A stretch of DNA of 64,000 nt from assembly GCA_030390025.1 (NCBI GenBank), contig CM059431.1:96102001-96166000 (forward strand). Direction: 5' to 3'. This document shows positions 16,366 to 55,478 of the stretch, in pieces. The notes beneath the pieces are model-generated. The model was given only the letters and a program-made list of their open reading frames with translations. It had not been told where the DNA came from and did not search any database. The DNA comes from Squalus acanthias (taxonomy: Eukaryota). The first letter of the stretch is position 1; each line of letters opens with the position of its first letter. Both the position numbers and the translations under genes were made by a program.

Positions 16366-17680
16366 GTAAACTCCAATGAGTAAAGTCCCAACCTGCTCAA
16401 CCTTTTTTCATAAGACAACCCCTTCATCTCAGGAATCAGCCTAGTAAACCTTCTCTGAACTGCCTCCAATGCAAGTCAACCCCCTCATCTCAGGTTGATT
16501 CCTGTGATGAGGGGGTTGACTTATGAAGAAATGTTGAGCAGGTTGGGCCTATACTCATTGGAATTTAGAAGAATGAGAGGTGATCTTATTGAAACATATA
16601 AGATACTGAGGGGGCTCGACAAGGTAGATGCAGAGAGGATGTTTCCCCTCGTGGGGAAATCTAGAACTCGGGGGCATAGTTCAGAATAAAGGGTCGCCCT
16701 TTTAGAACTGAGATGAGGAGGAATTTCTTCTCTCAGAGGGTCGTAAATCTGTGGAATTCTCTGCCCCAGAGAGCCGTGGAGGCTGGGTCATTAAATACAT
16801 TTAAGGTGGAGATAGACAGATTTTTGCAGGATAAGGGAGTGAAGGGTGATGGGGAGCGGGCAGGGAAGTGGCTTTGAGTCTAAGATCAGCCATGATCTTA
16901 TTGAATGGCGGAGCAGGCTCGAGGTGCCAAGTGGCCTATTCCTGCTCCTATTTCTTATGTTCTTATGTTCTTATCCCTCCTTAAATAAGGAGACTAAAAC
17001 TGCACACAGTACTCCAGATGTGGTCTCACCAGCACCCTGTACAGTTGTAGCAAGACTTCCCTACTTTAATACTCCATCCTCCTTGCAATAAGGGCCAACA
17101 TTCCATTTGCCTTCCATTTACTTGCTGTACCTGCATGCTAACCTTTTGTGTTTAAAGTACGAGGACCCCCAGATCCCTCTGTACCACAGCATTTTGTAGT
17201 CTCTCTCCATTTTAATAATAATTTGCTTTTTTATTCTTCCTACCAAAGTGGATAACCTCACATTTTCCCACATTATACTCCAGCTGCCAAATTTTTGCCC
17301 ACTCACTTAACCCATCTATATCCCTTTACAGACTCTTTGTATCCTCCTCACAACTTGCATTCCCACCTATCTTTGTATCGTCAGCAAATTTAGCTACAGT
17401 ACACTCGGTCCCTTCATCCAAGTCATTAATATAGATACAATAGCAAAATACTGTGGATGCTGGAAATCTAAAGTAACAACAGAAAATGCTGGAAACACTC
17501 AGCAGGTCAGGCAGCATTGAGGAGAGAAAAACAGAGTTAACATTTCGAGTTGGGGACCCTTCGTCAGAACTGTTCTGACGAAGGGTCCCCGACTCGAACC
17601 GTTGACTCTGTTTCTCTCTCCTCGATGCTGCCTGACCTGCTGAGTGTTTCCAGCATTTTCTGTTATCATTAATATAGATG
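16366..17680 (-). mobile_element. CR1 RT fragment interrupted by a plus-strand CR1 3' end (16495-16971) and a Penelope palindrome (17437-17665)
   Basis: YINDLDEGTECTVAKFADDTKIGG on the minus strand; the inner CR1 ends in (CTTATGTT)n at ~16971. Confidence 0.85.
17437..17665 (-). mobile_element. Penelope family-A terminal fold-back insertion with hammerhead motif
   Basis: Arms 17478-17570 / 17572-17664; 14-bp TSD TCATTAATATAGAT (17423-17436, 17666-17679); matches the 3' end of the Penelope at 40830-40970. Confidence 0.88.
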
Positions 17681-17849
17681 TCATGTTCAAAAATATTTTG
17701 AATTATTCGTGAAACATCTTTCTCTTTTGTTGGGCTGGATAAGATATTTAAGAATTACTAATAAAGGCAGCATGCTTATAGACCTCAGATGGACTTTCTC
17801 CATATTTATAAAATATATAATACATTTTTTAGATAGAGGGCATTTATCA

Positions 17850-18420
17850 CGCCATTTGGAAGAAATGGATTACTTCTGAGGTGCAGTCATTGTTGTTATG
17901 TAGGCAAACGTGGCAGCCACATTGCACACAGCAAGGTCTCACAGAGAATAGTGAGATGAGTAATTATTACATAGAATGTTTATACCTAGATCCCTTTGCT
18001 CCTCTACCCCATTTAGACTCTTATTTTCTAAGGAATATGTAGCTTCCTTGTTCTTCCTAGCAAAACGTCCCACCTCACACTTAGCTATATTGAAATTAAT
18101 TCGCCAATTACACGTCCATTCTGCAAGTTTATTAATGCCTTCTTCTAAGTCAATCTGTTTTTGGTTAAGGGAAGAATGTTGGCCAGGATATTGGAAGAAC
18201 TCCTTACCCTACTTGGAATAGTGCCATGGGATCATTAACATCCACGAGAACAAGCAGAAAAGGCCTTAGTTTAACTTCTCATCCAAAAGATGCCACCTTC
18301 GACAGTTTAGCACTCAGTCAGTACTGAACTGTAGTGGCAGCCTAGATTATGAGCTCAAATCCTGTAGTGGGACTCACAACATTCTCAGAGACAAAAGAGC
18401 GACTGATTGACTTAAATTGA
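17850..18420 (-). mobile_element. Degenerate Deu-domain SINE (SacSINE/AmnSINE-like) with an internal CR1 piece
   Basis: Reverse complement resembles 50140-50320 (GTGCTGCACTGTC...GATGA.A.GTTAAAC.AGGCC) and 61945-62185. Confidence 0.55.
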
Positions 18421-18469
18421 CACAATAGTGTAGTGCTTATGGCACTTGACTACCCCCCACCCCCACTGC

Positions 18470-18740
18470 AAGTTATAAAATTAAACTCCAGAAATCTGGT
18501 AATTTGTGGGCTAATGGGCAGATTCACGAATGGCGCAGAAAAAATGATCATGAAGCTGTTTGATTGTCATAAGAACTCAACTGGTTCACTCAATGCCGTC
18601 AGGGAAGGGAACCTGCCACCCCTACCTAGTCCAGTCCACACGTGACTCCAACCCCACACTATGTGGTTGTCTCTGAAGTGGCCTAGCAGGCCATTCAATT
18701 ACTAGAAGAAGGGTGTGGGCAATAAATATGTCTTAGCGTT
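18470..18740 (+). mobile_element. Old SINE fragment with a conserved central domain (Meta-domain-like)
   Basis: CTGGTTCACTCAATGCCGTCAGGGAAGGGAACCTGCCACCCCTACC...GTGACTCCA; tail GGGCAATAAAT also seen in the LINE tail near 19045-19110. Family name from recall. Confidence 0.45.
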
Positions 18741-18804
18741 GATGTGCAGGAATTTCATTTAATTTCACTCAGGTCATAAAATCATTACAGATAAACACAG
18801 AATC

Positions 18805-21800
18805 ATACAATCTTAGAATCATACAGCACAGAAGGAGGCTGTTCGGCCCATCATGCCTATGCCGGCTCTCTAAAAGAGCTACCATTTACATAGGACATAC
18901 AGCACAGAAACAGGCCATTTGACCCAACCAGTCCATGACAGGCGTTTATGCTCCACTTCAGCATCCTCCCATCTTTTCTCATCTATCAACGTAACCTTCT
19001 ATTCCCTTCTCCCTCATATGCTTCTCTAGCCTCCCCTTAAATTTTTTTTATTCGTTCCAGGTTATGGATGTCGCTGGCAAAGCCAGCATTTATTGCCCAT
19101 CCCTAATTGCTCTTGAGAAGGTGGTGGTGATCCGCCTTCTTGAACCGCTGCAGTCCGTGTGGTGAAGGTACTCCCACAGTGCTGTTAGGGAGGGAGTTCC
19201 AGGAGTTAAGTTTCTGGCCAATGGTGACCCCCAGGATGTTGATGGTAGGGGATTCGGCAATGGTAATGCCGTTGAATGTCAAGGGGCGGTGGTTCGATGC
19301 TGTCTTGTTGGAGATAGTCATTGCCTGGCGCTTGTATGGCGCGAATGTTATTTGCCACTTATATATATACTATTCGTTTCAACCACTCCCTCTGGTTTCA
19401 AGTTCCACATTCTCACCACTCTCTGGGTAAAGAGGTTTCTTCTGAATTCCGTATTTGATTTCTTGCTGACTATCTTATATTGATGGCCTCCAGTTTTGCT
19501 CTTCCCCACAAGTGGAAACTATTCTATCAAAACTTTTCATAATTTTAAAGACCTCTATTAGGTCACCTCTCAGCCTTCTCTGTTCAAGAGAAAGGAGACC
19601 CAGCCTGTTCATCCTTTCCTGATAGGTGTACCCTCGCATTTCTGGTACCATCCTTGTAAATCTTTTTTGCACCCTCTCCAGTGCCTCTATATCCTTTTTA
19701 TAATATGGCAACCAGAATTGTAGGCAGTACTCCAAGTGTGGTCTAGAATCATAGAATGGTTACAGCACAGGAGGAGGCCATGATTTTGAACACCTCTGTC
19801 AATACTCCTCTCAACCTTCTCTGCTCTAAGGAAAACAACCCCAGCTTCTCCAGTCTATCCACGTAACTGAAGTCCCTCATCCTGGAACCATTCTTGTAAA
19901 TCTTTTCTGCACCCTCTCTAAGGCCTTCATTGGACACAATACTCCAGTTAAGGTCGGACCAGTATTTTATGCAGGTTCACCATAACCTCCTTGCTTTTGT
20001 ACTCTATGCCTCTATTTACAAAGCCCAGGATCCCGTTTGCTTTTTAAACCACTTTTTCAACCTGCCCTGCCACCTGCAATGATTTGTGCACTTATACCCC
20101 CAGGTCTCTCTGTTCATGCACCTACTTTAGAATTGTACCCTTTAGTTTGCATTGTCTCTCCTCATTCTTCCCTACCAAAATGTATCACTTCGCACATTTC
20201 TGCGTTAAATTTCATCTGCCACGTGTCCGTCTATTCCATGCCTATTCCCTCTTGAAGTCTATCACTATCTTCCTCACTGTTCACTATACTTCCAAGTTTT
20301 GTCTCATCTGCAAATTTTAAAATTGTACATCCAAATCCAAGTCATTAATATATATCAAGAAAAGCAATGGTCCTAGTACTGACCCCTGGGGAGCACCACT
20401 GTGTACCTTCCTCCAGTCCGGAAAACAACCATTTACCACTACACTTTGTTTCCTGTTGCTTAGCCAATTTCATTTCCATGCTGCCCCTGTCCCTTTTATT
20501 CCATGGGCTTCAACTTTGCTGGCAAGCCTATTATGTGGCACTTTATCAAACGCCTTTTGGAAGTGCATGTACACCACATCAACCGCATTGCCATCATCAA
20601 CGCTCTCTGTTACCTCATCAAAAATCTCAATCTAGTTAGTAAAACACGATTTGCCTTTGACAAATCCATGCTGGCTTTCCTTAAATAATGCAAACATGTC
20701 CAAGTGGCTGTTAATTTTGTCCCGGATTATTGTTTCTAAAAGCTTCCCCACTACCGTGGTTAAGTTGACTGGCCTGTAGTCGCTGGGTTTATCCTTACAC
20801 CCTTTTTTGAACAAGGGTGTACCATTGGTAGTTCTCCAGTTCCCCCATATCTGAGGAGGATTGGAAGATTATGGGCAGTACCTCTGCAATTTCCACCTTT
20901 ACTTCCCTCAGCATCCTAGGATGCATCCCATCCGGTCCTGGTGACTTATCTACTTTAAGTACAGCCAGCCTTTCGAGTACCTCTTCTTTATCAATTTTTA
21001 TCCCATCTAGTATCTCAACTACCTCCACTTTCACTATGACTTTGGCAGCATCTTCTTCCTTGGTAAAGACAGATGCAAAGTACTCATTTAGTACCTCAGC
21101 CATGCCCTCTGCCTCCATGCGTAGGTCTCCTTTTTGGTCCCTCCTACTCTCTCTTTGCCCCTCTTATTTCCTTTTTACTTTCCCTCTGAACATTCTATAT
21201 TCAGCCTGATTCTCACTTGTATTCTCAACCTGACATCTGTCATACGCCCCCTTTTTCTGCTTCATCTTACTCTCTATCTCTTTCATCATCCAGGGAGCTC
21301 TGACTTTGGTTGCCTTACCTTTCCCCCTCGTGGGAATGTATGTCGACTGTACCCGAACCATCACCTCTTTAAAGGCAGCCCACTGTTCCATTACAGTTTT
21401 GCCTGGCAATCTTTGATTCCAATTTACCTGGGTCAGAACCATTCTCAACCCACTGAAATTGGCCTTCCTCCAATTAAATATTTTTACTCTAGATTGCTCC
21501 CTGTCCTTTTCCATAGGTAATCAAAACCTTATGATACTATGATCACTGATCCCTAAATGTTCCCCTACTGACAGTTGCTCCACTTGAACCATCTCATTCC
21601 CCAGAACCAGATCCAGTAATTCCTCCGTCCTCGTTGGGCCGGAAACGTACTGCTCAAAACAGTTCTCCTGAACACTCTTCAGAAATTCTTCCCCCTCTCT
21701 GCCCTTTACACTATTACTATCCCAGTCTTTATTAGGATAGTTGAAGTCCCCCATTATCACTACTCTACCAAGGTTCGATACAAGTTTAACATAACTTCCC

Positions 21801-22810
21801 TACTTTTCAATTCAATACTGCTAGAAATAAATCCTAGTGCTTGGTTTGCTTTTTTTATGGCCTTGTTGACCTGTGTAGCTACTTTTAGTGATTTGTGTAT
21901 TTGTACTCTGAGATCCCTTTGCTCTTCTACCCCATTTAGATTCGTATTTTCCAAGTAATATGTGACCTCCCTATTTTCTTATCAAAATGTAATACCTCAC
22001 ATTTATCTGTGTTGAATTTCATTTGCCAATTATATGCTCATTCTGCAAGTTTATTAATTAGTCCCACTTCCATGCTCTTTCCCTATAGCCATACAATTTT
22101 TTCTTTTTAAGTAGAAATCCAATTTCTCTTTTGAAAGTTACTATTGAATTTGCTTCCACCACCCTTTCAGGCAGTGCAATCCAGATCATAACAACTCGCT
22201 GAGTAAAAAAAGTTCTCCTCATTTCCCCCCTGGATTTTTTGCCAATAATTTTAAATTTGTGTCCTCTGGTTACCAATGCTCAAATTTTTATTTCATGCGC
22301 AATCCCTTTAACTGGCTGCGCAGCCCATTCAAATTTTCGTGCATGTGCGGTTTCTTCCATATAAAAGCCGAGGAGCGGCCTGCGCGGGACCTCCAGACCA
22401 TTGCATGGCCATGTGTCCACGCAGCTTAGTGGGAACATTGCTGGCTACCAACCCTCCTGCCAATTGAAACAGCTTCTCCCTAACTGCTCTATCAAACCCC
22501 TCATAATTTTGAACACCTCTATTAAACCTGGCCTTAACCTTCTCTGCTCTAAGTAGAACAATCCCAGCTTCTCTAGTCTCTCCAGATAACTGAATTCCCT
22601 CATCCTTGGTATCATTCTAGTGCATCTCCTCTGCACCCTCCAAGGCCTTGACATCCTTTCTAAAGTGTGGTGCCCAAAATTGGGCATAGTACTCCAGCTG
22701 AGGTCTAACCATTGATTCATAAAGGTTTAGCATTACTTCCTTGCTTTTAGACTCTATCTCTCAATTTATAAAGCGAAGGATCCCATATGCTTTTTTAACA
22801 GCTTTATGAA
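18805..22810 (-). mobile_element. Stack of nested, degenerate CR1 fragments (several 3' tails; RT and endonuclease pieces)
   Basis: ORFs 19475-19735, 20632-21760 (IMGDFNYP, DKSPGPDGMHPR) and 22445-22720; multiple ATCATAGA tails. Confidence 0.85.
22274..22440. mobile_element. hAT-type MITE (CAATGTTCCC family)
   Basis: CAATG...GGGAACATTG ends; 8-bp TSD CTGGTTAC/CTGGCTAC; body similar to 56702-56865. Confidence 0.7.
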
Positions 22811-22852
22811 CATTCTGAGAACAAATTTTAAATATTAAAATGAAATATTTGG

Positions 22853-22930
22853 AGTGAGCCTTGGCTCAGTGGTAGGATTCCCACTTCTGAGTCCGTAGGT
22901 TATAGGTTTGAGCCACACTCCAGACAGCCC
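22853..22930 (+). mobile_element. tRNA-derived SINE head (Pol III A/B boxes)
   Basis: TGGCTCAGTGG (A box) and GGTTTGAGCC (B-box-like); no cloverleaf. Confidence 0.5.
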
Positions 22931-23127
22931 TGGCAAACATAGACGAGGGTTCCGGTTTCTGAATACTGGGTTCAAGTCCAGGGGGGGACTCACCTCAGAT
23001 GGGAGTAGAGTGGCCATCCCCCACGCTTCTAGACAGTGCTCCTGGTAAGGGGTTGTGAGTCAGTCTAATAACCTGTCCATGCAAAAAGGGACTTAGTTAC
23101 AGAAAAAAAGCCAGAGCAGATCTGTTG

Positions 23128-24060
23128 GACGAATCATAGAATCATAGCATAGTACAGCACAGAAGGAGGACATTCAGCCCATCGAGTCTGTGCCGGCTCT
23201 TTCGAAGAGCATTCCAGTTAGTCCCTCCCCCCCTCGCTCTTTCTCCATATCTCTGCAATGTTTTCTCCTTCAAGTATTTATCCAATGCACGTTTGAAGAC
23301 TATTATTGACTCTGTATCCACTACCCTATCAGGCAGTGCATTCCAAATTCTAACCACTCACTGCGTAATTTTTTTTCCCTCATGTCGCGTCTGGTTCTTT
23401 TATCAATTAGCTTAAATCTGTGCCCTCTGGTTATCGACCCTTCAGCCATTGGAAACAGTTTCTCTTTATTTACTCTATCTAAACCCTTCATGATTTTAAA
23501 CAACTCTATCAAATCCCCTCTTAGCCTTCTCTGCTCCAAGGAGAATAATCCCAACTTCTCCAGTCTATCCACGTAACTGTATTCCCTCATCCCTGGAACC
23601 ATTCTAGTAAACCTCTTCTGTACCCTCTCCAAAGCCTTCACGTCCTTCCTAAAGTGTGGTGCCCAGAATTGGACACAATACTCCAGCTGGGGCCGAACTA
23701 GTCTTTATATAGGTTTAGCATAACTTACTGGCTTTTGCACTCTATGCCTCTATTTATAAAGCGGAGATGCCGGTGTTGGACTGGGGTGGACAAAATTGAG
23801 AGGTCGCACAACACCAGGTTATAGTCCAACAGTTTTATTTGAAATCACAAGCTTTTGGAGCTATCGATCGCCCCTTCCTGAGGAAGGGGCGATCGATAGC
23901 TCCGAAAGCTTGTGATTTCAAATAAAACTGTTGGGACTATAACCTGGTGTTGTGCGACCTCTCTATTTATAAAGCCCAGGATCCCATATGCATATTAACT
24001 GATTTGTTAGCCTGTCCAACCACCTTCAAAGATTTGTTCTCAAACACCCCCAGGTCTCTC
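23128..24060 (-). mobile_element. CR1 3' fragment containing a Penelope palindrome
   Basis: ORF 23321-23641 (LERVQKRFTRM, RRLRGDLIE); ATCATAGA tail. Confidence 0.88.
23763..23960. mobile_element. Penelope family-B terminal fold-back insertion with hammerhead core
   Basis: Palindrome centred on 23880; 15-bp TSD CTCTATTTATAAAGC (23748-23762, 23961-23975); CTGAGGA-A-GGGGC..GCTCC-GAAA-GCTT at 23878-23911. Confidence 0.85.
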
Positions 24061-24330
24061 TTCTTTAAAATCCTTTTAATATTTTAAACACCTCGATCTT
24101 CTTTATGCATGGGAATACAAGTCAAGTTTATGTAATCTGTCCTCCTAATTTAACCATTTTAGCTCCAGTATCATCTGTTGAATCTACGCTGCACCCCCTG
24201 CAAGGCCAATATATCCTTCCTGAGGTGCGGTGCTCAAAACTGAACACAGTACTCTAGGTGGGGTCTGACCAAGGCTCTGTCCAATTGAACTAGGTTGTCT
24301 CATGTGGCACTAGGCATGGAAGAGAAGAAG

Positions 24331-24865
24331 AAACATAGAAACATAGAAGATAGGAGCAGGAGTAGGCCATTCAGCCCCTCGAGCCTGCTCCGCCATTCAA
24401 TGAGATCATGGCTGATCATCCAAATTCAGTACCCTGTCCCTGCCTTCTCTCCATATCCCTTGATCCCTTTAGTTTTAAGAAATATATCTAACTCCTTCTT
24501 GAATATATTTAATGAATTGGCCTCTACTGCCTTCTGTGGTAGAGAATTCCACAGGTTCACCACTCTCTGGGTGAAGAAATTCCTCCTCATCTCAGTCCTA
24601 AATGGCTTACCCCTTATCCTTAGACTGTGACCCCTGGTTCTGGACTCCCCGACCATCGGGAACATCCTTCCTGCATCTAGTCTGTCTAGTCCTGTTAGAA
24701 TTTTATAAGTTTCAATGAGATCCCCTCTCATTCTTCTAAACTCCTGTGAGTATAAGCCCAATCGACCCAATCTCTCCTCATACGCCATTCCTGCCATCCC
24801 GGGTATCAGCCTGGTGAATCTTCGCTGCACTCCCTCCATGGCAAGAACATCCTTCCTCAGATAAG
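24331..24865 (-). mobile_element. CR1 3' fragment
   Basis: ORF 24426-24893; AAACATAG tail. Confidence 0.9.
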
Positions 24866-25644
24866 GCAATAAGTGTTTATTCAGACTTCTCAACTATTTA
24901 AATCTGAACATGAGCCACCTTATCCATTTTTTCCCATAAATAGCTGAACCATGCAAACTAGGAAGGTCCCTGATTTCCCAAGATGCATTGCCAGCGAGGA
25001 CAGCTCCCTGCTGGCAGCACCAGATCTACAGGGGGGCAGGTATGAAATTGGACAAAAAATATTCATGTGTGCTATGCAGCCAGCCCTGGGGTCAGTGCCC
25101 GTGGAACTCTATCCATCAAGAATCAATTTCTTCAGGGGAAAGGGATGAAACTGGCACCAAAATAACATATTAATATGATGAGTAGCATTATGTCACTAAA
25201 GTCAGAGACATAAAACATTTATCTGACTTGTTCAGTTGCATGGTCATATTCTTCAGCATTTTTTATTAGAAATGTTATGAAATATGCAACATAACTAAGG
25301 CAAGTGAAAGCAAGCATTGTGTATCACTGACTGACTTATCAACAGGACATTCAGATTGATTGAATTTAGCAAAAACTGGATACCCCTGGAGAGAAAGCCT
25401 GGCTGGTGTGTGAGGTGCGAGATGTTGGAGAGCCTTCCTAAACCATAAATGAACTCATCCAGGGTGCATTTACAAGTTTAGCATTGGTGTACAGGGAGTC
25501 TCATTCCATTTCACTTTAATATTAGATCACAAGATAATTATGGATGAGCAAGGCCATTCATTCCATTTTAGTTCATCTATCCAGAGAGGTCCTAATGTCC
25601 CCCCAGTGGAGTATCCAATTGTTTCTTAACTAATTCCAGGGTTA

Positions 25645-26055
25645 GGAACATAAAAATAGGCATAAGCCATTTCGCCCCTCGAGTCTGTTCCGCCATTCAA
25701 TGAGATCATGGCTGATCTGTGACCTAACTCCATATACCCGCCTTTTCCCCATATCCCTTAATACCTTTGGTTAACAAAAATCTAGCAATCAGATTTAAAA
25801 TTACCAATTGGCCTAGCATCAACTGCCGTTTGCAGAAGAGAGTTCCGAACTTCTACCACCCTTTGCGTGTAGAAGTGTTTCCTAACTTCACTCCTAAAAG
25901 GCCTGGCTCTAACTTTTAGGCTATGTCCCCCAGTCCTAGACTTCTCAACCAGCAGAAATAGTTTCTCTCTAGCTACCCTATCAGTTACCCTTAATATCGT
26001 GAAACTTCAATCAAATCACCCTTTAACCTTCTAAATTCCAGGGAATGCAACCCTC
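25645..26055 (-). mobile_element. CR1 3' fragment
   Basis: 3' UTR (CCATTCAATGAGATCATGGCTGATC) homologous to the other CR1 copies. Confidence 0.8.
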
Positions 26056-27335
26056 CTTTCCTTCTCCACTACTCTATCTATAATGTTGATATATAAATTT
26101 GATGTATCACTCTTCGGCCTGGCTCTTGATTTAGACTCCATTTCCACTTTAATTGTCTTGTTACAATTGTGGTGTAAATGGATCCTTGGTTATGCTGCCT
26201 CATTCCACTAGACTAGCAGGTAATCTGAAGACAGAGCCCTTTCTCCATCCCATTAGACTGGCAGATTGCTTAAACTAGTCTCATGAACAAGAAGTGTCAA
26301 ACACAGCAGTGGAGTCACCCTCTCCGACTGCCACTCTGTTACCAGGACCAGACAGAATCAATAAAACGGAAACAGGAGATTGCGTAAAGGACATAAAAAA
26401 ACAAGTGTGAAAAAGAACAATCAGGCTAATGAAGCCTGCTCCATCCAGTCAATGTGCAACCTCGTTTTTTGTTCAGTGTTCACCCACCCCCTAACCACAC
26501 AACCTCCTGGGAGAGGGGAAAAAAAGCTTTTGTTTGGTTTGGATCAGTGATGTTATTGCTGACAAATCATATGCTAATTAGTTTCAAAATATCTGCCTCC
26601 ATGAAGCAGAGGATTGCTTATAAAGCTGCAAAAGATTGATTTTGTATCTTAGATCATTGGTCACCTCATCACTGGCTCAGTTGGATCACACGCCTTGCTG
26701 AATTCCAAGCCATAGAAACCACACCAGGTCCAAGACCGTTATCTTTCCATCTCCACACTCCTCTCCATTTCAGTTTAATGGGTTCTACTCGTCTGGAGGC
26801 TGACATTTAACCCCTGAGTTGTGAAGTGCAAGCTTTAACTGCTGGACTAGAAGTCAACCTTTACTTAGAGAATAATGTATACCTTGGTGTGATTACAATA
26901 TCATATTCTAGTTAAGGGGCTTGAATGACAATCCTAAATTGTGACAATGAAGGATGTGTGGTTTTATAACCAGTTACATCCCTGATATTAGATTTCTACT
27001 TTTAAATCACTCATTGTATTACATGCTCTGATTCAAAGTGCAAAACTGTGCTCTGGTCAGTTTCTATGCTGAGAACTTCCATTAATGTTGATATCATCTG
27101 TCACTATGATTCAGGTCCTTAACCTGTGATGATATTCTCACTGGAGGGTTAATAAGGATTCCGTGTAATTGTAACTTTTATCGCCAGGTGATAGTGAATC
27201 GGGCGAGGTGTAAAATGGACTGCCGATTCGCTATCCCCCGTTTTTTGCCCTGCATAAAAGTTAATATTACCCCCAATGAGAGAAACATCCAGTACATACG
27301 ATGAAAGAATAAGTAAGAATGTCTATGTCAATACA

Positions 27336-27925
27336 AATGTGAAAAGTCGCACAACACCAGGTTATAGTCCAACAGCTTTATTTGAAATCACAAGCTTTTG
27401 GAGCGCTGCTCCTTCGTCAGGTGAAGTGAAGAGATGTATATAGGCACAGCATATATAGTCAGAGAACACTGCCAGATGATTACAGTTAATCTTTCTAACT
27501 GCCCTTTATCACACCTCGGCAGAGAGATAATCACGGCAATCAAAGGTGTGGATGGTATCCAAACAGGTCAGTCAGGAAAACATTACATCAAAGACAATGA
27601 GGTGGGGTCACAAGGGGTCAAATGTGGCATTGTCTTTGATGTAATGTTTTCCTGACTGACCTGTTTGGACACCATCCACACCTTTGATTGCCGTGATTAT
27701 CTCTCTGCCGAGGTGTGATAAAGGGCAGTTAGAAAGATTAACTGTAATCATCTGGCAGTGTTCTCTGACTATATATGCTGTGCCTATATCCATCTCTTCA
27801 CTTCACCTGACAAAGGAGCAGCGCTCCGAAAGCTTGTGATTTCAAATAAAGCTGTTGGACTATAACCTGGTGTTGTGCGACTTCTCACATTTGTCCACCC
27901 CAGTCCAACACCGGCATCTCCACGT
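27336..27925 (+). mobile_element. Penelope family-B insertion with ~265-bp inverted arms, each carrying a hammerhead motif
   Basis: Arms ~27333-27599 / 27628-27893 with a ~28-bp spacer; 12-bp TSD TATGTCAATACA (27324-27335, 27926-27937); mirror ORFs 27434+ and 27608-. Confidence 0.9.
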
Positions 27926-27939
27926 TATGTCAATACAGT

Positions 27940-28090
27940 ACAACAAAAGCAAAATACTGCAGATGCTGGAAATCTGAAATAAAAACAGAAAATGATGGAA
28001 ATACTCAGCAAATAAGGCAGCATCTGTGAAGAGAGAAACAGAGTTAATGTTTAATTATTAATGTTTCAGGTTGATGACCTTTCGTCAGAA
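27940..28090 (-). mobile_element. Penelope family-A 3' terminus with hammerhead motif
   Basis: Minus strand reads TTCTGACGAAAGGTCATCAACCTGAAACATTAA...CCAGCATCTGCAGTATTTTGCTTTTG. Confidence 0.82.
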
Positions 28091-28597
28091 TTCCTGTTGT
28101 CACGATTTTGGGTCATACTTTTCTGTCACCATTCCCTGTTCAATTTTGCTATGTGAACTGATATAATGTACTAGCAGGCTCTGGCCACACAGAGGCTCGA
28201 TGGAGCAAGTTCCTGTAGTCTGTCTCCCAACTCCATTGCCACCTTGTAGATAAAACTTATCAACTGACTGTGGGCAACACAACCAATAATTTACGAGTTA
28301 TCTGAGATATTAAAACCCTTTTCAGAATGCTGTAAGACAAAGTCTCTCAGGAATCTGAACCTAAAACCTTAACCTTGCCCAAATTAAGCAAGTTGATGTT
28401 ACTGTTAAGTACGTGAATTCTAGATCTTTTGATATGAAATTAAGAAGCAAGGGAGATCAAATGGTCCCACTCTTCTCTGCAACGGTACCTTTGTGGATCA
28501 TTTATTGTTAACCCTTGTTGCTTAATCATACATCCTCAATGGATTAATAGGATGTCCAAAGTGAAGCTGGAAATAAGGTCACCTGCCAACTCGTCGT

Positions 28598-28875: not shown

Positions 28876-29088
28876 AGCTGTAGGACAAATTCTACAATTT
28901 AACGCTTTTGGTGCAGAACTTTGGAACTGGAACGCACAACATGCATTCAGACATGGAGGTCATTGTACCAAATGCACGGCCCACATGGTTTATCCATTCA
29001 TTTTAATGGATGAAAAATCATGCAATCACAAATCAGGTGCACTGGCCTCTGTGCCAAATGCCCAATATGCCTCCCATCACACGAAGCC

Positions 29089-40829: not shown

Positions 40830-42171
40830 GACGATAGCAAAATACTGCAGATGCTGGAAATCCGAAATAACAACTGAAAACGCTGGAAAAACTCAGCAAT
40901 CCAGACAACATCCGTGGAGCGGGAAAGAGAGTTAACGTTTCAGGTCGATGACCTTTCGTCAGAACTGGAAAGAGCCGGAAATCCAATAGATTTAAGGCCA
41001 GGATAAAGCTGGGAAAATGGGGAGGGGATAAAGGAACAAAAGGGGAGATAAAGAGACATTAAGAGATATGCAAGGCAAGAGGTGGTGTTAATGTGACAGG
41101 TTAAGGCTGAAAGAAGTGTGAAATCCACTGGCAGAATAAAGGACAGCTGCCAGCTTCTAGGAGGAAAAAAAAAGTTGGGGGGGGCCAAATAAAAGGGTGG
41201 ATGAAAAAATAAAATATAAATGTGATTGGAGCTGAGGTTATGATCTAAAATTGTTGAACTCGATATTGAGTCCAGAGGGCTGTAGCGTGCCTAAACGAAA
41301 GATGAGGTGCTGTTCCTCGAGCTTACGCTGCGCTTCCGTGGAACAGTGTAATAGGCCGAGGACGGTGAGGTCAGAGTGGGAGTGAAGCGGTGAATTAAAG
41401 TGACAGGCGACCGGGAGCTCGGGGTCCCCCTTACGGACTGAACGGCAGTGTTCCGCAAAGCGGTCACCCAATCTGCGTTTGGTCTCCCCAATGTAGAGGA
41501 GACCACATCGTGAGCAGCGAATACAGTATACTAAATTGCAGGAAGTACAAGTAAATCGCTGTTTCACCTGGAAGGGGTGTTTGGGGCCCTGGACAGTGGG
41601 AAGAGGGGAGGTATAAGGGCATGTGTTGCATCTCCTGCGCGTGCACGGGAAGGTGCCGGGCGAAGGGGAAGGGGTGCTGGGGGTGGAAGAGGAGTGGACT
41701 AGAGTGTCGCGGAGGGAGCGGTCCCTGCGGAATGCTGAAAGGGGAGGTGAGGGGAAGATGCGTTTGGTGGTGGGATCACGCTGGAGGTGGCGGAAATGGC
41801 GGAGGATGATCCATTGAGTGTGGAGGCTGGTGGGGTGAAAGGTGAGGACAAGGGGAACCCTATCGTGGTTCCGGGAGGGAGGGGCAGGGGTGAGGGCAGA
41901 AGTGCGGGAGATAGAACGGACACGGTCGAGGGCCGTGTCGACCACGGTAGAGGGGAATCCTCGGTTGAGGAAAAAGGAAGACATGTCGGAAGCACTGGTA
42001 TGGAAGGTGGCATCATCAGAGCAGATGCGGCGGAGATGGAGAAACTGGGAGAATGGAATAGAGTCCTTACAGGAGGCGGGGTGGGAGGAAGTGTAGTCCA
42101 GGTAGCTGTGGAAGTCAGTGGGCTTGTAGTGAATGTTAGTCAATTACCTATCCCCAGAGATGGAGATGGAG
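40830..42171 (-). mobile_element. 5'-truncated Penelope-like element: RT C-terminus + GIY-YIG endonuclease + 3' hammerhead
   Basis: ORF 41238-42143: YKPTD.HSYLDYTSSHP, CTRRRCNTC, NLVYCIRCSRCGLLYIGETKRRLGDRFAEH, LGTLQPSGLN; 13-bp TSD TACCCTCTGCTTC (40817-40829, 42172-42184). Confidence 0.93.
40929..40967 (-). ncRNA. Minimal type-I hammerhead ribozyme (Penelope pLTR)
   Basis: AGTT-CTGACGA-A-AGGTC-ATC-GACCT-GAAA-CGTT-AACT: helix I AGUU/AACU, helix II AGGUC/GACCU, palindromic AACGUU in place of helix III, predicted GUU cleavage triplet. Confidence 0.8.
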
Positions 42172-44028
42172 TACCCTCTGCTTCCTGTCTCCGAGCCAGT
42201 TTTGAAGCCAACTTGATACTTTGCCCTGGATCCCATGGGCTTTTAACTTCGTGACCAGTCTGCCATGTGGAACCTTATCAAAAGCCTTGCTAAAGACCTA
42301 TACACTACATCAAACGCACTACCCTCATCTACCCTCTTTGTTACCTCCTCAAAAAATTCAATCAAGTTTGTCAGACACAACCTTCCCTTTACAAATCCGT
42401 GCTGACTATCCTTGATTAATCCGTGTCTTTCTAAATGAAGATTTATCCTGTCCTTCAGAATTCTTTCCAATAATTTTCCCACTACCGAGTTTAGGCTGAC
42501 TGGCCTGTAATTACTCGGTCTATCCTTTTCTCCCTTTTTAAACAAGGGTACCACATTAGCAGTCCTCCAGTCCTCCGGCACCACACCTGAAGCCAGAGAG
42601 GATTGTAAAATGATGGTCAGGGCCTCTGCTATTTCCTCTTTTGCTTTGCTTAACAGCCTGGGATACATTTCATCCAGGCCTGGGGATTTATCTACTTTTA
42701 AAGCTGCTAAATCCCTTAATACTTCCTCTCTCACTATGTTTATTTCATCTCATATTTCACACTCCTCCCCCCTGATAGCAATGTCTGCTTCGCCCCTCTC
42801 CTTTGTGAAAACAGATGCAAAGTATTCATTAAGAACCCTACCAATGTCTGCCACCACCTGACGAGACAACCTGAGCCTCCTGAGACATTGCTGTTCAGAC
42901 ATGTCAAGGAAATTCAGCCTCTGTCTGTAGACCCTGTGTCACAGTTAGTGCCTCCTGCGAGCTGCTCCCCTCTCTGCTGCTCCCCTCGCTACAGCCCCCC
43001 TCACTGGATTGGGCGCAACCAGCCTTGCCTGATCCCGTTAAACTCAGAAGTCGGTTTTAACCCCCCATCCGCACCCAAACCTACGCGTTCCTCCAGATTA
43101 AAATTCCCCTCTTAATGTCTCAATAATAGAACCTGCTCTCAGGGCTTCAGTCCTTCACTACTGGCCCTGCACCAATAACTTTGGTCCTTCACTGAGGCGC
43201 CTCGGTCCCGCACTTAATGTTTTAATAATAAAACAGAATCTTTGATAGTTAAGTGCAGTAAATTAGAGCTATAGCCTGGAGAAAGGATTGCGAATGAGCT
43301 GTAGTAGGGACCTTAAGTGCAGCGATACGCCCTTCAGCATATAAGTTAAATGTCTGAAGTGATAGGGTTCAGGTCCAAAGTGACTGAAATCAACTGAGCG
43401 ACAAGCCATGTTCCTTATATCATTGGATTCATGGAAGGCCCACACCAACTATTGTTTGTGCTCTGTGTTTTTATCCTTGCAGCACGAGATGAATCCTATT
43501 TGGGAACAACTCTGGCTCTGTCTCTCCACCCTCATTATTGTCTCTGTCCCTCCACCTTCGGGTTGCCAACTCTGTTTGGAGGCATTATGTTCTGACCACG
43601 TGACATCTGATTATGTGACATGTGATCACATGACTTCTACAAATGATATTGCAATTACATTATAAAAGGTTGGGTTTGGGTCCCCTGTAGTTGAGTATCT
43701 TTGCTCGTGGTTTTGCACCAGAAGCTGTTGTGCGAGAAGTTCCAAGAACCAAGAGGCCAACTAAGAGCAGGCGAAGAGAGGAAACCAAGGGCGGGGAAGA
43801 TGAGGAACCGAGAGCGGGGAAGAGGAGAGACTGAAGAGGGAAAACTGAGGGCGGGGAAGAAGGGAAACCAAATTGTGGGGAGCAATTTGCAGAGGGGAAA
43901 CCAGAGCTGGGAAGAACTTAGATTCCACCAGTAACTAATGGTAACTCATACAAATTGCACTGATAGCTCATAGTAATATTGGTAACAATCCCCATATAAC
44001 CAACAGTAACACAATAACTCACTGATAT

Positions 44029-47000: not shown

Positions 47001-47260
47001 TTTATGGCGAAGCCTACCCCATGGAGGCTGCGTTCTTCTTCAGGTTTGCCTTTCCAGAAGAAGGTGTAGCCACCACCTTGCTCCTTGAGCTGACCTTCCC
47101 CTGCCCGCCGGGTCTCACTTAGGGCGGCGATGTCAATGTCGAAACGTCTGAGCTCCCGGGCAACGATAGCAGTCTGTCACTGTTGGGGTTGTCCATGAGG
47201 GTCCTGACGTTCCAGGTCCCGAACTTCATTTTAAAGGGTGAAAGATACCTCTGTGTGAAT
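44029..47260 (-). mobile_element. Near full-length RTE-clade LINE (APE endonuclease + RT), frameshifted
   Basis: MKFGTWNVRTL, ISAYAPT, LLGDFNARVG, WTDHRL, NYRGVSLLS, FFDLTKAFDTV; ORFs 45128-46945 and 44266-45213; same family as 30279-31612. Confidence 0.93.
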
Positions 47261-50656: not shown

Positions 50657-50689
50657 CTGTCTAGCATAAGTAGATAGACTTTTAAGTAA

Positions 50690-52631: not shown

Positions 52632-52802
52632 CAGAACATTGGACTATTTGAGTCCGGCAAATAACACATAAAAGTAATGTTATGCATGTTGTAGGACCAA
52701 CACAGAATATGCTCTCATTTTAAAAAAATCATTTATTTATTGCCCATCCCTAGTTGCCCTTGAGAGGGTGGTCGTGAGCTGCCTTCTTGAACAGCTGCGG
52801 TC

Positions 52803-53165
52803 TGGGGGTGGGGTGGTGGGAGGCGGGGGTGTGGTGTGGTGAGGTGGGGGGTGTGGTGGGGGGGGTGTGGTGGGGGGGTTATGGTGGGGGCGTGGGGTGG
52901 GGTTGTGGTAGGGGGGTGGGGTGGGGTGGTGGGGGGATGGGGGTGTGGTGTGTGGTGGTGTTGTGGTGGGGGGGTGGGGTGGGTTGGTGGGATGGGGGCT
53001 GGTGGGGTGGGGGGATGGGGCTGTGGTGTGGTGTGTGGTGGTGGGATGGGGGCTGGTGGGATGGGGTGATGGGGGTGTGGTGGTGTGGTGGGCGGTGTGT
53101 GGTGGGGGTGTGGGGTGTGGTGGGGGGGTGGGGTGGGATGGTGGGGGGCTGGTGGGGTGGGAGGG
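52803..53165 (+). repeat. G/T-rich low-complexity tract (GGTGGGG-like, G-quadruplex-prone)
   Basis: Nearly all G and T. Confidence 0.9.
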
Positions 53166-53349
53166 CTGTGGGGGAGAGGGAGAATGTGATGCAGGTGTAA
53201 AGGGTGGGGGTGGAAGAACGTGATCCAGGCCTAACAGAGGGCGGGAGAACGTGATCTATCTTCCCATCTGGATCACGTTCTTGCTCTCATCCCATCCCTC
53301 CTTTACACCTGGATCACATTCTTCCCCCCTCCCCGCTGTTGTCACCATA

Positions 53350-53960
53350 TTACCCCCCCAACAAGTTCTGTCCTTCTCTCCCCGAGTTTAGGACACCCAA
53401 CCACCCCGCCCCCGACAAGCTCCTGACCTTCTCCCATCTCTCTGAGCTCCTCTCTCTCTGAGCTCCTCTCACCCCCACAATCCTCTCTCTCCACCCAACG
53501 ATCCTCTCTCTCCCCCCTTTGATCCTCTCCCCCACTTCGATCCCCTCTCCCCCCACCTTTCGATCCCCTCTCTCCCCCCTCCAATCCTCTCTCTCCCACC
53601 TTCGATCCTCTCCCCCACTTCGATCCCCTCTCCCCCCCACCTTTCGGTCCCCTCTCTCCCCCACTTCGATCCCCTCTCTCCCCCACTTTTGATCCTCTTT
53701 CTCCACTCCCTCTCTATCCTCTTTATCCCCTGCCTCTCTCCCCTCCCTTTGATCCTCTCCCCCCCTCCCTTTGATCCTCTCTCTCCTCCCCCCCCCCCCT
53801 CCGATCCGGTCTCCCCTCCCTCTCCCCCCCCCCCGATCCTCTCTTTCCCACCCCTCTGCTTTTCTCTCTCCCCTCTGATCCTCTCTCCCCCCCCCCCCGA
53901 TCCTCTTCTTCCCCCCCTTCAATCCTCTCTCTCCCCCGCGTCCCCATCCGATCCCCTGAC
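53350..53960 (+). repeat. C/T-rich degenerate repeat (GATCCTCTCTCCCCC)n
   Basis: Repeated GATCC(T/C)CTC units. Confidence 0.85.
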
Positions 53961-55335
53961 CTTCTCCGCACGGAGCCAAGGAAAGTAGCCACGGCGCCAT
54001 CGAGTACTGCGCATGCGCGACCAGATCGCGTTCGCATGCGCAGTACCGAACGGGTGCGCATGCGCAGAGAGCCAAAAATGTGGTGCAAATAATCACTCCA
54101 ATTAACTAGTGCTATGGGGGAGGGTTTAAACTAATTTGGCAGGAGGAAGGGCACCAGGATAAAGCATTAGAGTGGAGATACAAAGCGCAGAGAGGACTGA
54201 GAGAGACAAACAGTATTGGAATAAAGAGCTCATAAATAGGAGAGATCAGACAAGGGGAAAATACAAGGCAGACTAAGATCGATTTGGAGTGCATGTGCGT
54301 GGTGAATAAGGTTGGTGAATTGCAGGCACAAGTAGCCACATTATGACATAGTGCCAATAACAGAGACCTGGCTCACACAAGGGGAGGAATGGTCACTTAA
54401 TATTTCTGGCTACAATGTATTGAGAAGGAAAATAATGGTGTAAAGGGCAAAGAGGGGAAAGAATTCCTGAAATCAAGGAAGGAAGCAGTGCTGGATCTAG
54501 TTCTGTGAAATGAAGTGGGGCAATTGGAGCATGATTCAGTGGGGAATTATTTGGGAAACAGTAATCACAATATCATTATGTTTAGAGTAGTTATGGAAAA
54601 GGCAAGGAAAAATCAAATGTGAAAATACGCTACTGGAGGAGAGCTAATTTCAGCGAGTTGAAAAAGGATCAGGCCCAGGTAGATTGGAATCAATGATTGG
54701 TAGGTAAAACAGTAAATGAGCAATGGGAGGCCTGCAAAGAAAAGATAGTTCGGGTACCGACTAGACACATTCCCATGAGGGGGAACAAAAAGCATCCAAA
54801 GCTCGAGCTCCCTGGATGACTAAAGATATAGAGATTTAAATAAAATAGAATAGGGGGGCTTATGATTAATGTCTCGTCCATAATTCAGTTGAGAACCAAG
54901 CTGAATACAAAAAGTACAGAGAACTGAAAAAGGAAATAAGAGGGCCAAAGAGAGTGTATCAGAATAGATTAGCAGGTAACATAAAAGGGAACCCAAAAGT
55001 CTTTTATAAACATAGAAATAGTGGAAGGGTTGGCCAATAAGGAACCAGAAAGGAGATCTTCTTGTGGAGGCAGAGGGCATGGCTGAGGCACTAAATGAGT
55101 ATGTTGCATTTGTCTTCATTAAAGAAGGGGATTCTGAAAATGTCACAGTAAAGGAGGTGGTAGTAGAGAAATTGGATGGGATAAAAATAGATAAAGAGGA
55201 GGTACTTAAATGGTTGGCAGTCCTCAGAGTAGAAATGTCACCCAGTCCAGATGAGATGCATCCTAGCTTGCTGAGGGAAGTAAGGGTTCACATTGGGGAG
55301 GCTCTGGTAACAACCTTCCAATCCTCCTTAGATAT

Positions 55336-55478
55336 ATGTGAGAAGTCGCACAACACCAGGTTGTAGTCCAACAGCTTTATTTGAAATCACAAGCTTTCGG
55401 AGCGCTGCTCCGTCAGTGAACCTGACGACTTCTCACATTTGTCCATCCCAGTCCAACACCGGCATCTCCACATCATGG
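55336..55478 (+). mobile_element. Penelope family-B fold-back insertion, internally deleted
   Basis: 12-bp TSD CTCCTTAGATAT (55324-55335, 55479-55490); turn CGTCAG-TGAAC-CTGACG at 55411-55427. Confidence 0.82.

What the first reader, a model, noticed from the sequence alone, without database searches (positions are those of the whole stretch)
17437..55478. Hammerhead-bearing Penelope mini-palindromes whose fold-back point sits at the ribozyme core
Seen: short TSD-flanked insertions of two unrelated terminal sequences (family A: 17437-17665; family B: 23763-23960, 55336-55478, 27336-27925), plus a family-A terminus at 27940-28090 with no TSD identified. In four of the five, the 5' truncation or fold-back lies within ~5 nt of the CUGANGA motif: centre 17571 (3 nt before CTGA), centre 23880 (inside CTGA), turn 55417-55421, end ~28090. 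Established: PLEs carry minimal hammerheads in their pLTRs and often insert with an inverted, truncated pLTR. Inference: the breakpoint is upstream of the cleavage site, so cleavage alone does not explain it. Either the PLE RT stalls or self-primes at ribozyme helix I, or these are ~150-230 bp non-autonomous hairpin retroelements (retrozyme/MITE-like) that propagate as units.
Basis: partly seen in the sequence, partly recalled or inferred. Interest (0 to 1): 0.72.

Follow-up and report, generated by a model that had tools for sequence, protein, structure and literature searches.

The report
Penelope leader copies joined head-to-head
These are short dead-end copies of the first ~130 bases of two Penelope-like retrotransposon families, single or joined head to head, and they nearly always end a few bases before the element's small hammerhead motif, most likely because the template RNA starts there.

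Summary
Four have target-site duplications, and four of the five break within about 5 nt of CUGA.

Both families carry the features of minimal hammerheads. Both sit downstream of GIY-YIG ORFs, so they are Penelope-like element (PLE) 3' regions.

Samples from the window's own 3.7-Gb genome show a real hot spot:
- Family A: 15 of 24 breakpoints inside the span examined fall in a 13-nt window (-8..+4 from CUGA).
- Family B: 17 of 28.

The junctions are nearly all different (23 forms among 25 in family B), so the hairpins arose independently and did not spread as units.

The same hammerhead is not a hot spot when it lies inside an element, ahead of the ORF (2 of 21 in family B, 2 of 24 in family A). 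That argues against a stall caused by the ribozyme itself.

In each family the hot spot coincides with an initiator-like A that lies exactly 30 nt after the start of the only nearby TATA-like box. My best reading, at about 0.5 confidence, is run-off at an RNA 5' end after internal initiation of reverse transcription, followed by head-to-head joining of two cDNAs. No RNA 5'-end data could be obtained.

This is known PLE architecture with a new positional detail. An earlier scan note on other DNA of this genome already reported these hammerheads.

The parts
17437..17665 (.). Family A head-to-head dimer. The left arm 17437-17570 is antisense and carries the ~40-nt tail. The right arm 17572-17665 is sense and lacks the tail. 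The fold lies 3-4 nt before CUGA. TSDs are 17423-17436 and 17666-17679.
23763..23962 (.). Family B head-to-head dimer. The left arm is antisense with tail and the right arm is sense without tail. The fold lies inside CUGA (centre 23880). TSDs are 23750-23762 and 23963-23975.
27336..27926 (.). Family B long palindrome with 267-nt arms and a 28-nt loop. The fold lies about 170 nt upstream of the hammerhead. The right arm carries the tail. TSDs are 27325-27335 and 27927-27937.
27938..28092 (-). Family A single leader copy that starts 2-4 nt before CUGA. It has a 13-nt internal insertion, and no TSD was found. The family-B palindrome is inserted directly beside its 3' end.
55336..55478 (.). Family B dimer. 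The inverted arm lacks the tail and reaches 4-5 nt before CUGA. The sense arm keeps only CCTGACGA and then skips to about +72 and the tail, with a CGA overlap. TSDs are 55324-55335 and 55479-55490.
40836..42240 (-). 5'-truncated PLE copy of a young family-A subfamily. It comprises the ORF end with a GIY-YIG domain (41238-42143), about 270 nt of pLTR, an intact minimal hammerhead motif (40962-40934) and the tail. It is inserted into a LINE reverse-transcriptase ORF.
60033..60093 (+). Family A fragment holding only the last ~60 nt, including the tail.

Best explanation
Positions are counted from the C of CUGA (0). The short units are cDNA copies of the 5' leader of PLE transcripts.

1. The pLTR (pseudo-LTR) carries a TATA-like box and an initiator. 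These would start RNA 4 nt (family A) or 7 nt (family B) before CUGA, so the hammerhead would be the first thing in the RNA.
2. The PLE enzyme starts reverse transcription inside the RNA, at two neighbouring sites about 85-100 and 122-136 nt downstream, next to the ORF start. This internal initiation was shown for an Anolis PLE by Frangieh et al. 2024.
3. Synthesis that starts at the 5'-proximal copy of these sites runs off the RNA end after about 130 nt.
4. The product is either integrated as a single ~135-bp unit, or two such cDNAs, primed from the two target strands, are joined 3' end to 3' end by a template jump or a few bases of overlap. The second route gives a head-to-head palindrome centred on the RNA 5' end.
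5. In these palindromes only one arm carries the ~40-nt tail.

Shown here: the anatomy, the hot spot, the asymmetry of the arms, the independence of the junctions, the motifs, and the lack of a hot spot at internal hammerheads.

Inferred: the RNA 5' end, the two-cDNA joining, and any activity of the hammerhead.
For: 1. Hot spot. In family A, 15 of the 24 copies that break inside -227..+36 have an arm end in -8..+4. The sample was 39 loci, chosen with a query that lies 3' of the hammerhead. In family B it is 17 of 28 (32 copies).
2. Single, non-inverted copies start at the same place: 7 in family A (L040, L041, L058, L059, L061, L063, L075), plus L004 and L005, and L037 in family B.
3. In each reference copy there is exactly one W-run (a run of 6 or more A/T) whose start lies 30 nt before the A of a YYANWYY match. 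That A is at -4 in family A and -7 in family B. The commonest inner ends of the inverted arms follow this difference: -2..-4 in 7 of 8 family-A hairpins, and -6/-7 in 11 family-B hairpins.
4. Arkhipova et al. 2013 describe a TATA box plus a TCACT initiator-like motif in rotifer Penelope pLTRs (passages read).
5. The hammerhead is not a hot spot when it is internal: 2 of 21 stop there in family B and 2 of 24 in family A2, against 17 of 31 and 15 of 35 at terminal hammerheads (Fisher p 0.001 and 0.007).
6. Perfect palindromes with 0-1 nt at the centre (window 17571, window 23880, L042, L051) fit an end-to-end jump between two cDNAs better than a single-strand snap-back.
7. The inverted arm lacks the tail in 25 of 25 family-B and 10 of 10 family-A hairpins. 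This fits two start sites and extension of both target strands, as reported in vitro (main text read).
8. Weak support: the depth ratio of a possible RNA run to a DNA run is 0.024-0.029 over +81..-5, and 0.012 and 0.0045 in the two bins upstream.
Against: - No RNA 5' end was seen. The only raw RNA reads offered came from another organism and none matched. The remaining runs were contigs, which cannot show starts.
- The promoter motifs were looked for after the hot spot was known. Their consensus forms and the -30 spacing are recalled knowledge, not a tool result.
- Among copies that hold the ORF 5' end, only 2 of 21 (family B) begin at the hot spot. Six ends or junctions cluster at -59..-73, including two simple ends at exactly -70 (L092, L108). 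That cluster could mark a different or additional RNA start. In rotifer Penelope the pLTR starts upstream of the TATA box.
- In family B most arms end at -6, not -7. Position -6 is also the edge of a CTTC..GAAG inverted microrepeat, so that detail fits the switching rival equally well.
- A cap-derived extra G is seen in only 2-3 junctions, which is too few to count.
- The samples are the 40 best-scoring hits of each search, not random copies.
Confidence: 0.5

Rival explanations
1. Early strand switching inside a dimeric PLE complex, with no RNA end involved. Two cDNAs (or one cDNA folding on itself) switch templates within the first ~130 nt. The switch is guided by the short inverted microrepeat that brackets the hammerhead core: CTTC..GAAG in family B and TTC..GAA in family A.
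For: Several family-B junctions are exactly what GAAG-3' priming on CTTC would give (L013, L034, L035; similar in L023 and L031). The arm ends track the 5' edge of the microrepeat, at -6 in family B and -2/-3 in family A. The effect is limited to the hammerhead next to the start of synthesis, as expected if switching happens only early.
Against: It does not explain the single, non-inverted copies that start at the same place (7 plus 2 in family A, 1 in family B). Helix II is a far stronger inverted repeat (5 GC-rich pairs), yet no inverted arm ends there (0 of 25). Centres of 0-1 nt (window 17571, L042, L051) need no microrepeat.
Confidence: 0.2
2. The PLE reverse transcriptase stalls at the folded, or protein-held, hammerhead or at helix I next to its start site. 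It then ends synthesis or primes on itself.
For: The hot spot abuts the core in two pLTRs of otherwise different sequence. Frangieh et al. 2024 report that the Anolis hammerhead cleaves only with the protein present, so the protein may hold this RNA region.
Against: By the hot spot, the enzyme has already copied helix I's 3' strand, helix II and the whole core, so no fold is left ahead of it. Internal copies of the same hammerhead are passed in 19 of 21 and 22 of 24 cases. The offset differs by 3 nt between the families although helix I occupies -1..-4 in both.
Confidence: 0.12
3. Self-priming on an antisense transcript, as proposed for rotifer Penelope by Arkhipova et al. 2013. The 3' end of an antisense RNA or of its copy folds back, giving head-to-head pLTRs with a palindromic junction.
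For: The head-to-head arrangement and palindromic junctions match their description (passages read). The TATA-like box of family B reads similarly on both strands.
Against: Nothing found here would define an antisense 3' end at -4 or -7. It does not account for the single copies. The tail on one arm needs sense-RNA sequence downstream of the first start site.
Confidence: 0.08
4. The hairpins are non-autonomous retroelements (retrozyme-like or MITE-like) that are transcribed and copied as whole units.
For: They are short and TSD-flanked, and two junction forms recur (L034 = L035; L023 = L031; window 17571 = L042).
Against: There are 23 junction forms among 25 family-B hairpins. The outer ends of the inverted arms vary over about 10-28 nt. 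The window 17571 copy and L042 share a junction but carry the tail on opposite arms. TSD lengths vary (9-15 bp), unlike transposase products. No tandem head-to-tail units were found in the 220 kb held. A unit that starts at the hot spot lacks the TATA-like box.
Confidence: 0.03

Closest known systems
Minimal hammerheads (min-HHRs) in the pLTRs of metazoan Penelope-like elements (Cervera & de la Pena 2014, PMC4209133; parts 1-2 of 4 read)
   Same: Both have CUGANGA and GAAA boxes, an extra unpaired base before helix II, a short helix I (4 bp here), no helix III but a 4-nt palindrome (ACGU or AGCU), and a location in the PLE terminal repeat. Most copies are scattered singles. That paper also notes pairs on opposite strands 100-700 bp apart.
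   Different: That paper does not say where truncated or inverted copies break relative to the motif. Here H17 is U. In family A the 10.1-11.1 pair is A-U or G-U rather than the usual G-C. Activity was not tested.
Canonical PLE insertion architecture: pLTRs, an adjacent inverted 5'-truncated copy, a 30-40-bp tail at one end only, and palindromes at the inverted junction (Craig et al. 2021, PMC8557442; Arkhipova et al. 2013, PMC3846280; passages read)
   Same: The head-to-head inverted pLTRs, the tail on one arm only, the palindromic junctions, the variable TSDs and the TATA plus initiator-like motifs in the pLTR are all seen here.
   Different: Here most insertions are nothing but the inverted pair or a single ~135-bp leader. 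The junction is pinned to a 13-nt window at the initiator and hammerhead edge, and only for the hammerhead next to the start of synthesis. The rotifer pLTR starts upstream of its TATA box.
Internal initiation of reverse transcription at two adjacent sites in the Anolis PLE PAc (Frangieh et al. 2024, PMC11167929; main text read)
   Same: There are two 3' ends about 40 nt apart that define the tail. They lie close to the ORF start and about 55-105 nt downstream of the predicted hammerhead cleavage site. Uncleaved RNA is the main template. Both target strands are extended in vitro, which would allow two cDNAs.
   Different: In PAc the sites lie 111-118 nt into the ORF. Here the outer site sits at the ATG in family B. 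Leader-only genomic copies and their 5' ends were not found discussed in the text I read. Supplement file 1 could not be searched.
Animal non-LTR retrozymes as non-autonomous PLE derivatives (Li, Clavereau & Pollet 2026 preprint, 10.64898/2026.07.22.740005; abstract and results part 1 read)
   Same: They are PLE-pLTR-derived, hammerhead-bearing, non-coding short repeats. Direct tandem arrays of deleted units (period 269-386 nt) do occur in this genome.
   Different: The units in the finding are single or inverted, not tandem. They have one cleavage site per strand, so they cannot release a unit-length or circular RNA.
L1 5' inversion by twin priming, and retroviral minus-strand strong-stop cDNA (both recalled; only a search listing was seen for L1)
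   Same: Like twin priming, two cDNAs are primed from the two target strands and joined with little or no overlap. Like strong-stop, synthesis runs off at the RNA 5' end shortly after initiation.
   Different: In L1 the inverted part comes from a different, more 5' stretch of the RNA, so no palindrome forms. Here both arms copy the same stretch because initiation is fixed by the element's own sites. No strand transfer has been shown.

Membership tests
Minimal hammerhead of PLEs (Cervera & de la Pena 2014) | CUGANGA and GAAA core boxes with a helix II of 4 or more pairs between them | tested here: met
   My descriptor hit the window at 23878(+) and 40962(-), and hit 31 family-B and 21 family-A copies in the loci (two of the A copies are a variant the script tallied as 'other'). 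The mean was 0.01 hits in 100 shuffles of the window. Three window copies carry core mutations: 27815 CTGACAA, 17575 GAAC, 28088 ACAT.
Minimal hammerhead of PLEs (Cervera & de la Pena 2014) | An unpaired base between positions 9 and 10.1; a palindromic 15.2-16.2 in place of helix III; H17 not G; a helix I of 4-5 bp | tested here: met
   Read. Family A is CUGACGA-A-(A/G)GGUC AUC GACCU-GAAACGUU. Family B is CUGACGA-A-GGAGC AGC GCUCC-GAAAGCUU. Helix I is 4 bp in both (-1..-4 with +29..+32). In family A the 10.1-11.1 pair is A-U or G-U, not G-C.
Minimal hammerhead of PLEs (Cervera & de la Pena 2014) | Match to the curated Rfam hammerhead models | tested here: not met
   No family reached gathering score in the window. 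There was no hammerhead hit at E<=10 in 16000-29000. This is expected for motifs without helix III, but it means membership rests on the published descriptor only.
Minimal hammerhead of PLEs (Cervera & de la Pena 2014) | Self-cleavage | not testable with these tools
   There is only a hint: 4 of 39 family-A copies begin at +22..+32, around the predicted cut between +28 and +29.
Penelope-like element (EN+) | A single ORF ending in a GIY-YIG endonuclease, followed by a pLTR | tested here: met
   PF01541 matches window 41238-42143(-) at 22.5 bits (cut-off 22.6, just under) and L015:1957-2307(-) at 23.1 bits. A genome search with the window's family-A ORF segment returned 131 scored matches, 97-98% identical apart from the window's own, with open frames up to 1004 aa. 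The RT domain of these ORFs was not scanned.
Penelope-like element (EN+) | Partial tandems, an inverted 5'-truncated copy, a tail at one end, variable TSDs | tested here: met
   Four full-length-frame copies have an upstream partial copy (L117-L120).
Non-LTR retrozyme | Head-to-tail tandem units, each with a hammerhead, able to release a unit-length (circular) RNA | tested here: not met
   The five window insertions are single or inverted. No tail-to-hammerhead tandem junction was found in the 220 kb held. Tandem deleted units exist elsewhere in the genome.
MITE / DNA transposon | Fixed-length TSD and conserved terminal inverted repeats | tested here: not met
   TSDs range from 9 to 15 bp. The two outer ends differ by the ~40-nt tail and vary by several nt.

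The most novel reading that the evidence does not exclude
The PLE leader, from RNA start to RT start site and with the hammerhead at its very 5' end, may behave like a retroviral R / strong-stop unit. The enzyme initiates internally, and the site is present near both ends of a transcript from a partial tandem. A large share of initiations would therefore run off the 5' end after ~130 nt. These run-off cDNAs would be integrated as singles or head-to-head pairs. On this reading, the many 'orphan' minimal hammerheads of animal genomes would largely be such run-off fossils. They would record, base by base, the in vivo RNA start, both RT start sites and the rare ribozyme-cut templates. Transfer of the run-off cDNA to the 3' copy of the leader would be how pLTRs are rebuilt.
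Probability: 0.3. Interest if true: 0.62.

Novelty: new member of a known kind. Interest (0 to 1): 0.4.

Why it matters
How Penelope-like elements integrate is still poorly understood, and so is what their conserved hammerheads are for. If the hot spot marks the RNA start, genomic copies alone give a base-level map of three things: the transcript start, both start sites of reverse transcription, and how the two target strands are joined. That map would tie the 2024 in vitro result (internal initiation, both strands extended) to millions of years of in vivo events. It would also explain why most minimal hammerheads in animal genomes are orphan singles or inverted pairs. Finally, it places the ribozyme at the extreme 5' end of the RNA, which narrows the possible roles of the ribozyme. 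If the hot spot is not an RNA start, it points instead to a specific early switching step in the PLE complex.

Tried and rejected
- **Rfam:** no hammerhead hit at gathering score or at E<=10 in 16-29 kb. Only chance microRNA-like hits to the hairpins appeared.
- **Random genome sample:** I used the best hits of targeted searches instead, so the samples are not random.
- **Near-consensus family-A 3' query:** found nothing because its words are too common in this genome. A diverged window copy worked.
- **RNA evidence:** of the four runs laid, the only raw RNA run is of another organism and gave 0 reads, and the raw DNA run gave 21 reads. The other two were contigs, which cannot show starts. No place where molecules begin was reported. 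The depth ratio is only a weak hint, and the 'RNA' label of run X13 is a guess.
- **PF01541 over the genome:** one match only, so it was no route to a third PLE family.
- **Earlier scan notes by sequence and by words:** nothing.
- **Supplements of Frangieh et al.:** no hits in the three files held as text. File 1 was not searched.
- **3' splice site (..ttttccAG|TT) as the cause of the family-A boundary:** rejected. Family B has no AG there, and short copies have unrelated flanks or a TSD directly upstream with no shared first exon.
- **Cap-derived extra G at the 5' junction:** only L005, the window 28090 copy and perhaps L014 show it, which is too few.
- **Pol III transcript idea:** a T5 run sits at the inner RT start site of family A, but family B has no T4 run, so I dropped it.
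- **Head-to-tail 'tail then hammerhead' junctions**, expected if run-off cDNAs jumped to a new RNA's start site: none in the 220 kb held.
- **Literature searches for a reported hot spot:** nothing in the listings or the passages I read. This is not proof that it is unpublished.

Full report
**Coordinates.** Positions are given relative to the C of CUGA, which is 0. In both families the predicted hammerhead cut lies between +28 and +29.

**What is in the window.**
- The three palindromes are real: 93-nt arms around 17571, 54- plus 35-nt arms around 23880, and 267-nt arms with a 28-nt loop at 27333-27894.
- The fourth insertion (55336-55478) is an inverted arm followed by 8 nt of the core region and then the last ~50 nt.
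- Four insertions have target-site duplications (TSDs) of 11-14 bp.
- BLAST within the window found two further family-A pieces, 40836-40965(-) and 60033-60093(+).

**Identity.**
- Upstream of the 40836-40965 copy lies an ORF with a GIY-YIG match (22.5 bits, cut-off 22.6).
- A long family-B copy from the genome has the same arrangement (23.1 bits).
- Searching the genome with the window's ORF segment gave 90,845 first-look candidates. The 131 scored were 97-98% identical, apart from the window's own, with open frames up to 1004 aa.
- Both termini are therefore 3' regions of Penelope-like elements (PLEs).
- Rfam finds no hammerhead.
- Both families nevertheless show the published features of PLE minimal hammerheads (Cervera & de la Pena 2014): CUGANGA, an unpaired base, a 5-bp helix II, GAAA, a 4-nt palindrome in place of helix III, U at position 17 and a 4-bp helix I.
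- A descriptor I wrote from these features hits the window twice, against 0.01 expected.
- An earlier scan note on other DNA of this genome (e1-7790369) had already called such motifs ordinary PLE hammerheads.

**Is the breakpoint position general?** The window's assembly (3.7 Gb) could be searched.

*Family A.* I used a query lying wholly 3' of the hammerhead, so that the choice of copies did not depend on how far they run 5' (1662 candidates, 40 scored). I fetched all 39 non-self hits.

| Outcome | Copies |
|---|---|
| Run on past -199 | 15 |
| End at -170 to -25 | 5 |
| Arm end in -8..+4 | 15 (7 single copies, 8 hairpins) |
| Start at +22..+32 | 4 |

*Family B.* I used a query of the last 90 nt (77 candidates, 40 scored; 30 loci, one being the window's own). 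With the 3 window copies this gives 32 copies.

| Outcome (further-reaching arm) | Copies |
|---|---|
| Ends in -8..+4 | 17 |
| Ends at -11..-18 | 5 |
| Ends at -43..-170 | 5 |
| Runs on | 4 |
| Stops short | 1 |

- Against a uniform spread over the spans examined, the binomial p is 2e-14 (family A) and 8e-14 (family B).
- These are best-scoring hits, not random copies.

**Independent events or amplified units?**
- Among 25 family-B hairpins I read 23 different junction forms.
- TSDs differ in sequence and in length (9-15 bp).
- The outer end of the inverted arm varies (+69..+97).
- The window's family-A junction (GAAC-T-GTTC) recurs in L042, but with the tail on the opposite arm.
- No head-to-tail units were found in the 220 kb held.
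- The hairpins therefore arise anew each time.

**Asymmetry.**
- In 25 of 25 family-B and 10 of 10 family-A hairpins, exactly one arm carries the ~40-nt tail.
- The tail-less arm is the one that usually reaches the hot spot. Its inner end is at -2..-4 in 7 of 8 family-A hairpins and at -6/-7 in 11 family-B hairpins. The tailed arm often begins later, at +1..+36.
- A tail at one end only is a known PLE trait (Craig et al. 2021).
- The tail equals the stretch between two RT start sites mapped in vitro (Frangieh et al. 2024).
- In family B the outer site sits at the ORF's ATG.

**Is the ribozyme the cause?** I sampled copies through the first 87 nt of the family-B ORF (39 loci) and through 76 nt of the ORF 5' region of the young family-A subfamily (38 loci). 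In these copies the hammerhead is internal.
- Family B: of the 21 copies that reach the hammerhead, 2 stop in -8..+4 and 19 pass.
- Family A2: of 24 that reach it, 2 stop and 22 pass.
- This compares with 17 of 31 and 15 of 35 at terminal hammerheads (Fisher p 0.001 and 0.007; pooled 9e-6).
- Caveats: some of these loci are neighbours in one array (four pairs in family A2), and L080 and L083 look like one structure seen twice.
- Helix II, the strongest hairpin, is never the end of an inverted arm.
- A stall set by the ribozyme fold is therefore unlikely.

**What else marks the spot?**
- In each reference copy the only W-run (a run of 6 or more A/T) that starts 30 nt before the A of a YYANWYY match points to -4 (family A) and -7 (family B).
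- The TATA/initiator consensus and spacing are recalled knowledge. A TATA box plus a TCACT initiator-like motif in a Penelope pLTR is described by Arkhipova et al. 2013.
- The 3-nt difference between the families is mirrored by the arm ends.
- This suggests that the RNA begins there, with the hammerhead as its first element.
- Reverse transcription that starts at the nearby internal sites would run off after ~130 nt.
- Single units would be such run-off cDNAs.
- Hairpins would be two run-off cDNAs, primed from the two target strands and joined 3' end to 3' end. Some are joined with 0-1 nt at the centre, others through a GAAG/CTTC overlap.

**Against this reading.**
- I have no RNA 5' ends. One search gave contigs only for this organism.
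- The depth ratio of a possible RNA run to a DNA run falls from 0.024-0.029 to 0.012 and 0.0045 upstream of the hot spot. Both the label and the measure are weak.
- Copies holding the ORF 5' end rarely begin at the hot spot. In family B they show a second cluster at -59..-73, with two simple ends at exactly -70, which I cannot explain.
- The -6 end in family B also fits the edge of the inverted microrepeat.
- I therefore put the run-off reading at about 0.5. The rivals are early switching in the complex at 0.2, a protein- or fold-dependent stall at 0.12, antisense self-priming at 0.08, and hairpin units at 0.03.

**Comparison with what is known.**
- Already described: inverted pLTRs, palindromic junctions, one-sided tails, minimal hammerheads, orphan motifs and opposite-strand pairs.
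- Self-priming has been proposed for the palindromes.
- What I did not find in four searches or in the texts I read is the statement that the junction and the 5' ends are pinned to the 5' edge of the hammerhead, only at the terminal copy.
- These are new families of a known kind, with a positional detail that makes a mechanistic question testable.

Noticed in passing
L015:1480-2320 and L029 (family B pLTR, about 230-330 nt upstream of its hammerhead): Directly after the ORF stop, the family-B pLTR holds a degenerate family-A-like segment. It has CCTGACGT.., a helix II kept by two double changes, and then ..ACAGATGCGGCC..TTTCCAGC. Family B looks like an A-type element that gained a second, new hammerhead-and-tail module downstream.
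   Followed up: partly
L022, L024, L086, L088, L091, L093, L096, L097, L099, L104, L106 (family B); 21 of the 38 loci L121-L158 (family A2): There are deleted non-coding derivatives in which the first ~90-230 nt of the ORF are joined to the pLTR. The join is at -43..-75 in family B. In family A2 it is at -42..-118, with nine at -101..-105. Some form direct tandem arrays with periods of 269-386 nt. These, not the hairpins, resemble animal non-LTR retrozymes.
   Followed up: partly
L092, L108 (simple ends at -70); L099, L100, L101, L115 (junctions at -59..-73): There is a second cluster of 5' ends and junctions about 60-70 nt upstream of the family-B hammerhead, upstream of the TATA-like box. 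It is unexplained. It might be a second RNA start, the canonical pLTR edge, or related to antisense transcription from the same A/T box.
   Followed up: no
L044, L045, L053, L067 (family A): Four of 39 copies begin at +22..+32, around the predicted hammerhead cut (+28/+29). In L067 and L045 the TSD leaves +29 possible. This is a possible trace of ribozyme-cut templates, but there are too few to judge. No family-B copy begins exactly at +29.
   Followed up: partly
window 39845-40939(-) and 42243-42749(-): These two ORF pieces are halves of one LINE reverse transcriptase (RVT_1 E 1e-13 and 1e-7), split by the 5'-truncated PLE copy at 40836-42240.
   Followed up: partly
window 27926-27938: The family-B palindrome is inserted directly against the 3' end of the family-A copy, with only its own TSD between them. 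This fits the reported tendency of PLEs to insert next to PLE ends.
   Followed up: no
window 16367-16567: Another inverted repeat (76-nt arms, 88%, 49 nt between) lies in a different repeat that matches neither family A nor family B.
   Followed up: no
window 44266-47176(-): Long ORFs (324 and 682 aa) belong to another non-LTR retrotransposon, with endonuclease-like and RT-like stretches by eye. They were not scanned.
   Followed up: no
genome-wide: The family-A ORF has 90,845 first-look candidates. The 131 scored are 97-98% identical to the window's ORF segment (apart from the window's own match), several with 1004-aa open frames. This is a very young and very abundant PLE family. I observed it only and singled out no copy.
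   Followed up: no
L015:1480-2320 (run X1): Summed word depth in a DNA run is about 5 times lower over the tail (+82..+110) than over +53..+81. It is also about 5 times lower over the hammerhead bin than over +53..+81. This suggests that tail-less ends, and copies cut 3' of the hammerhead, are common genome-wide. The measure is rough.
   Followed up: no
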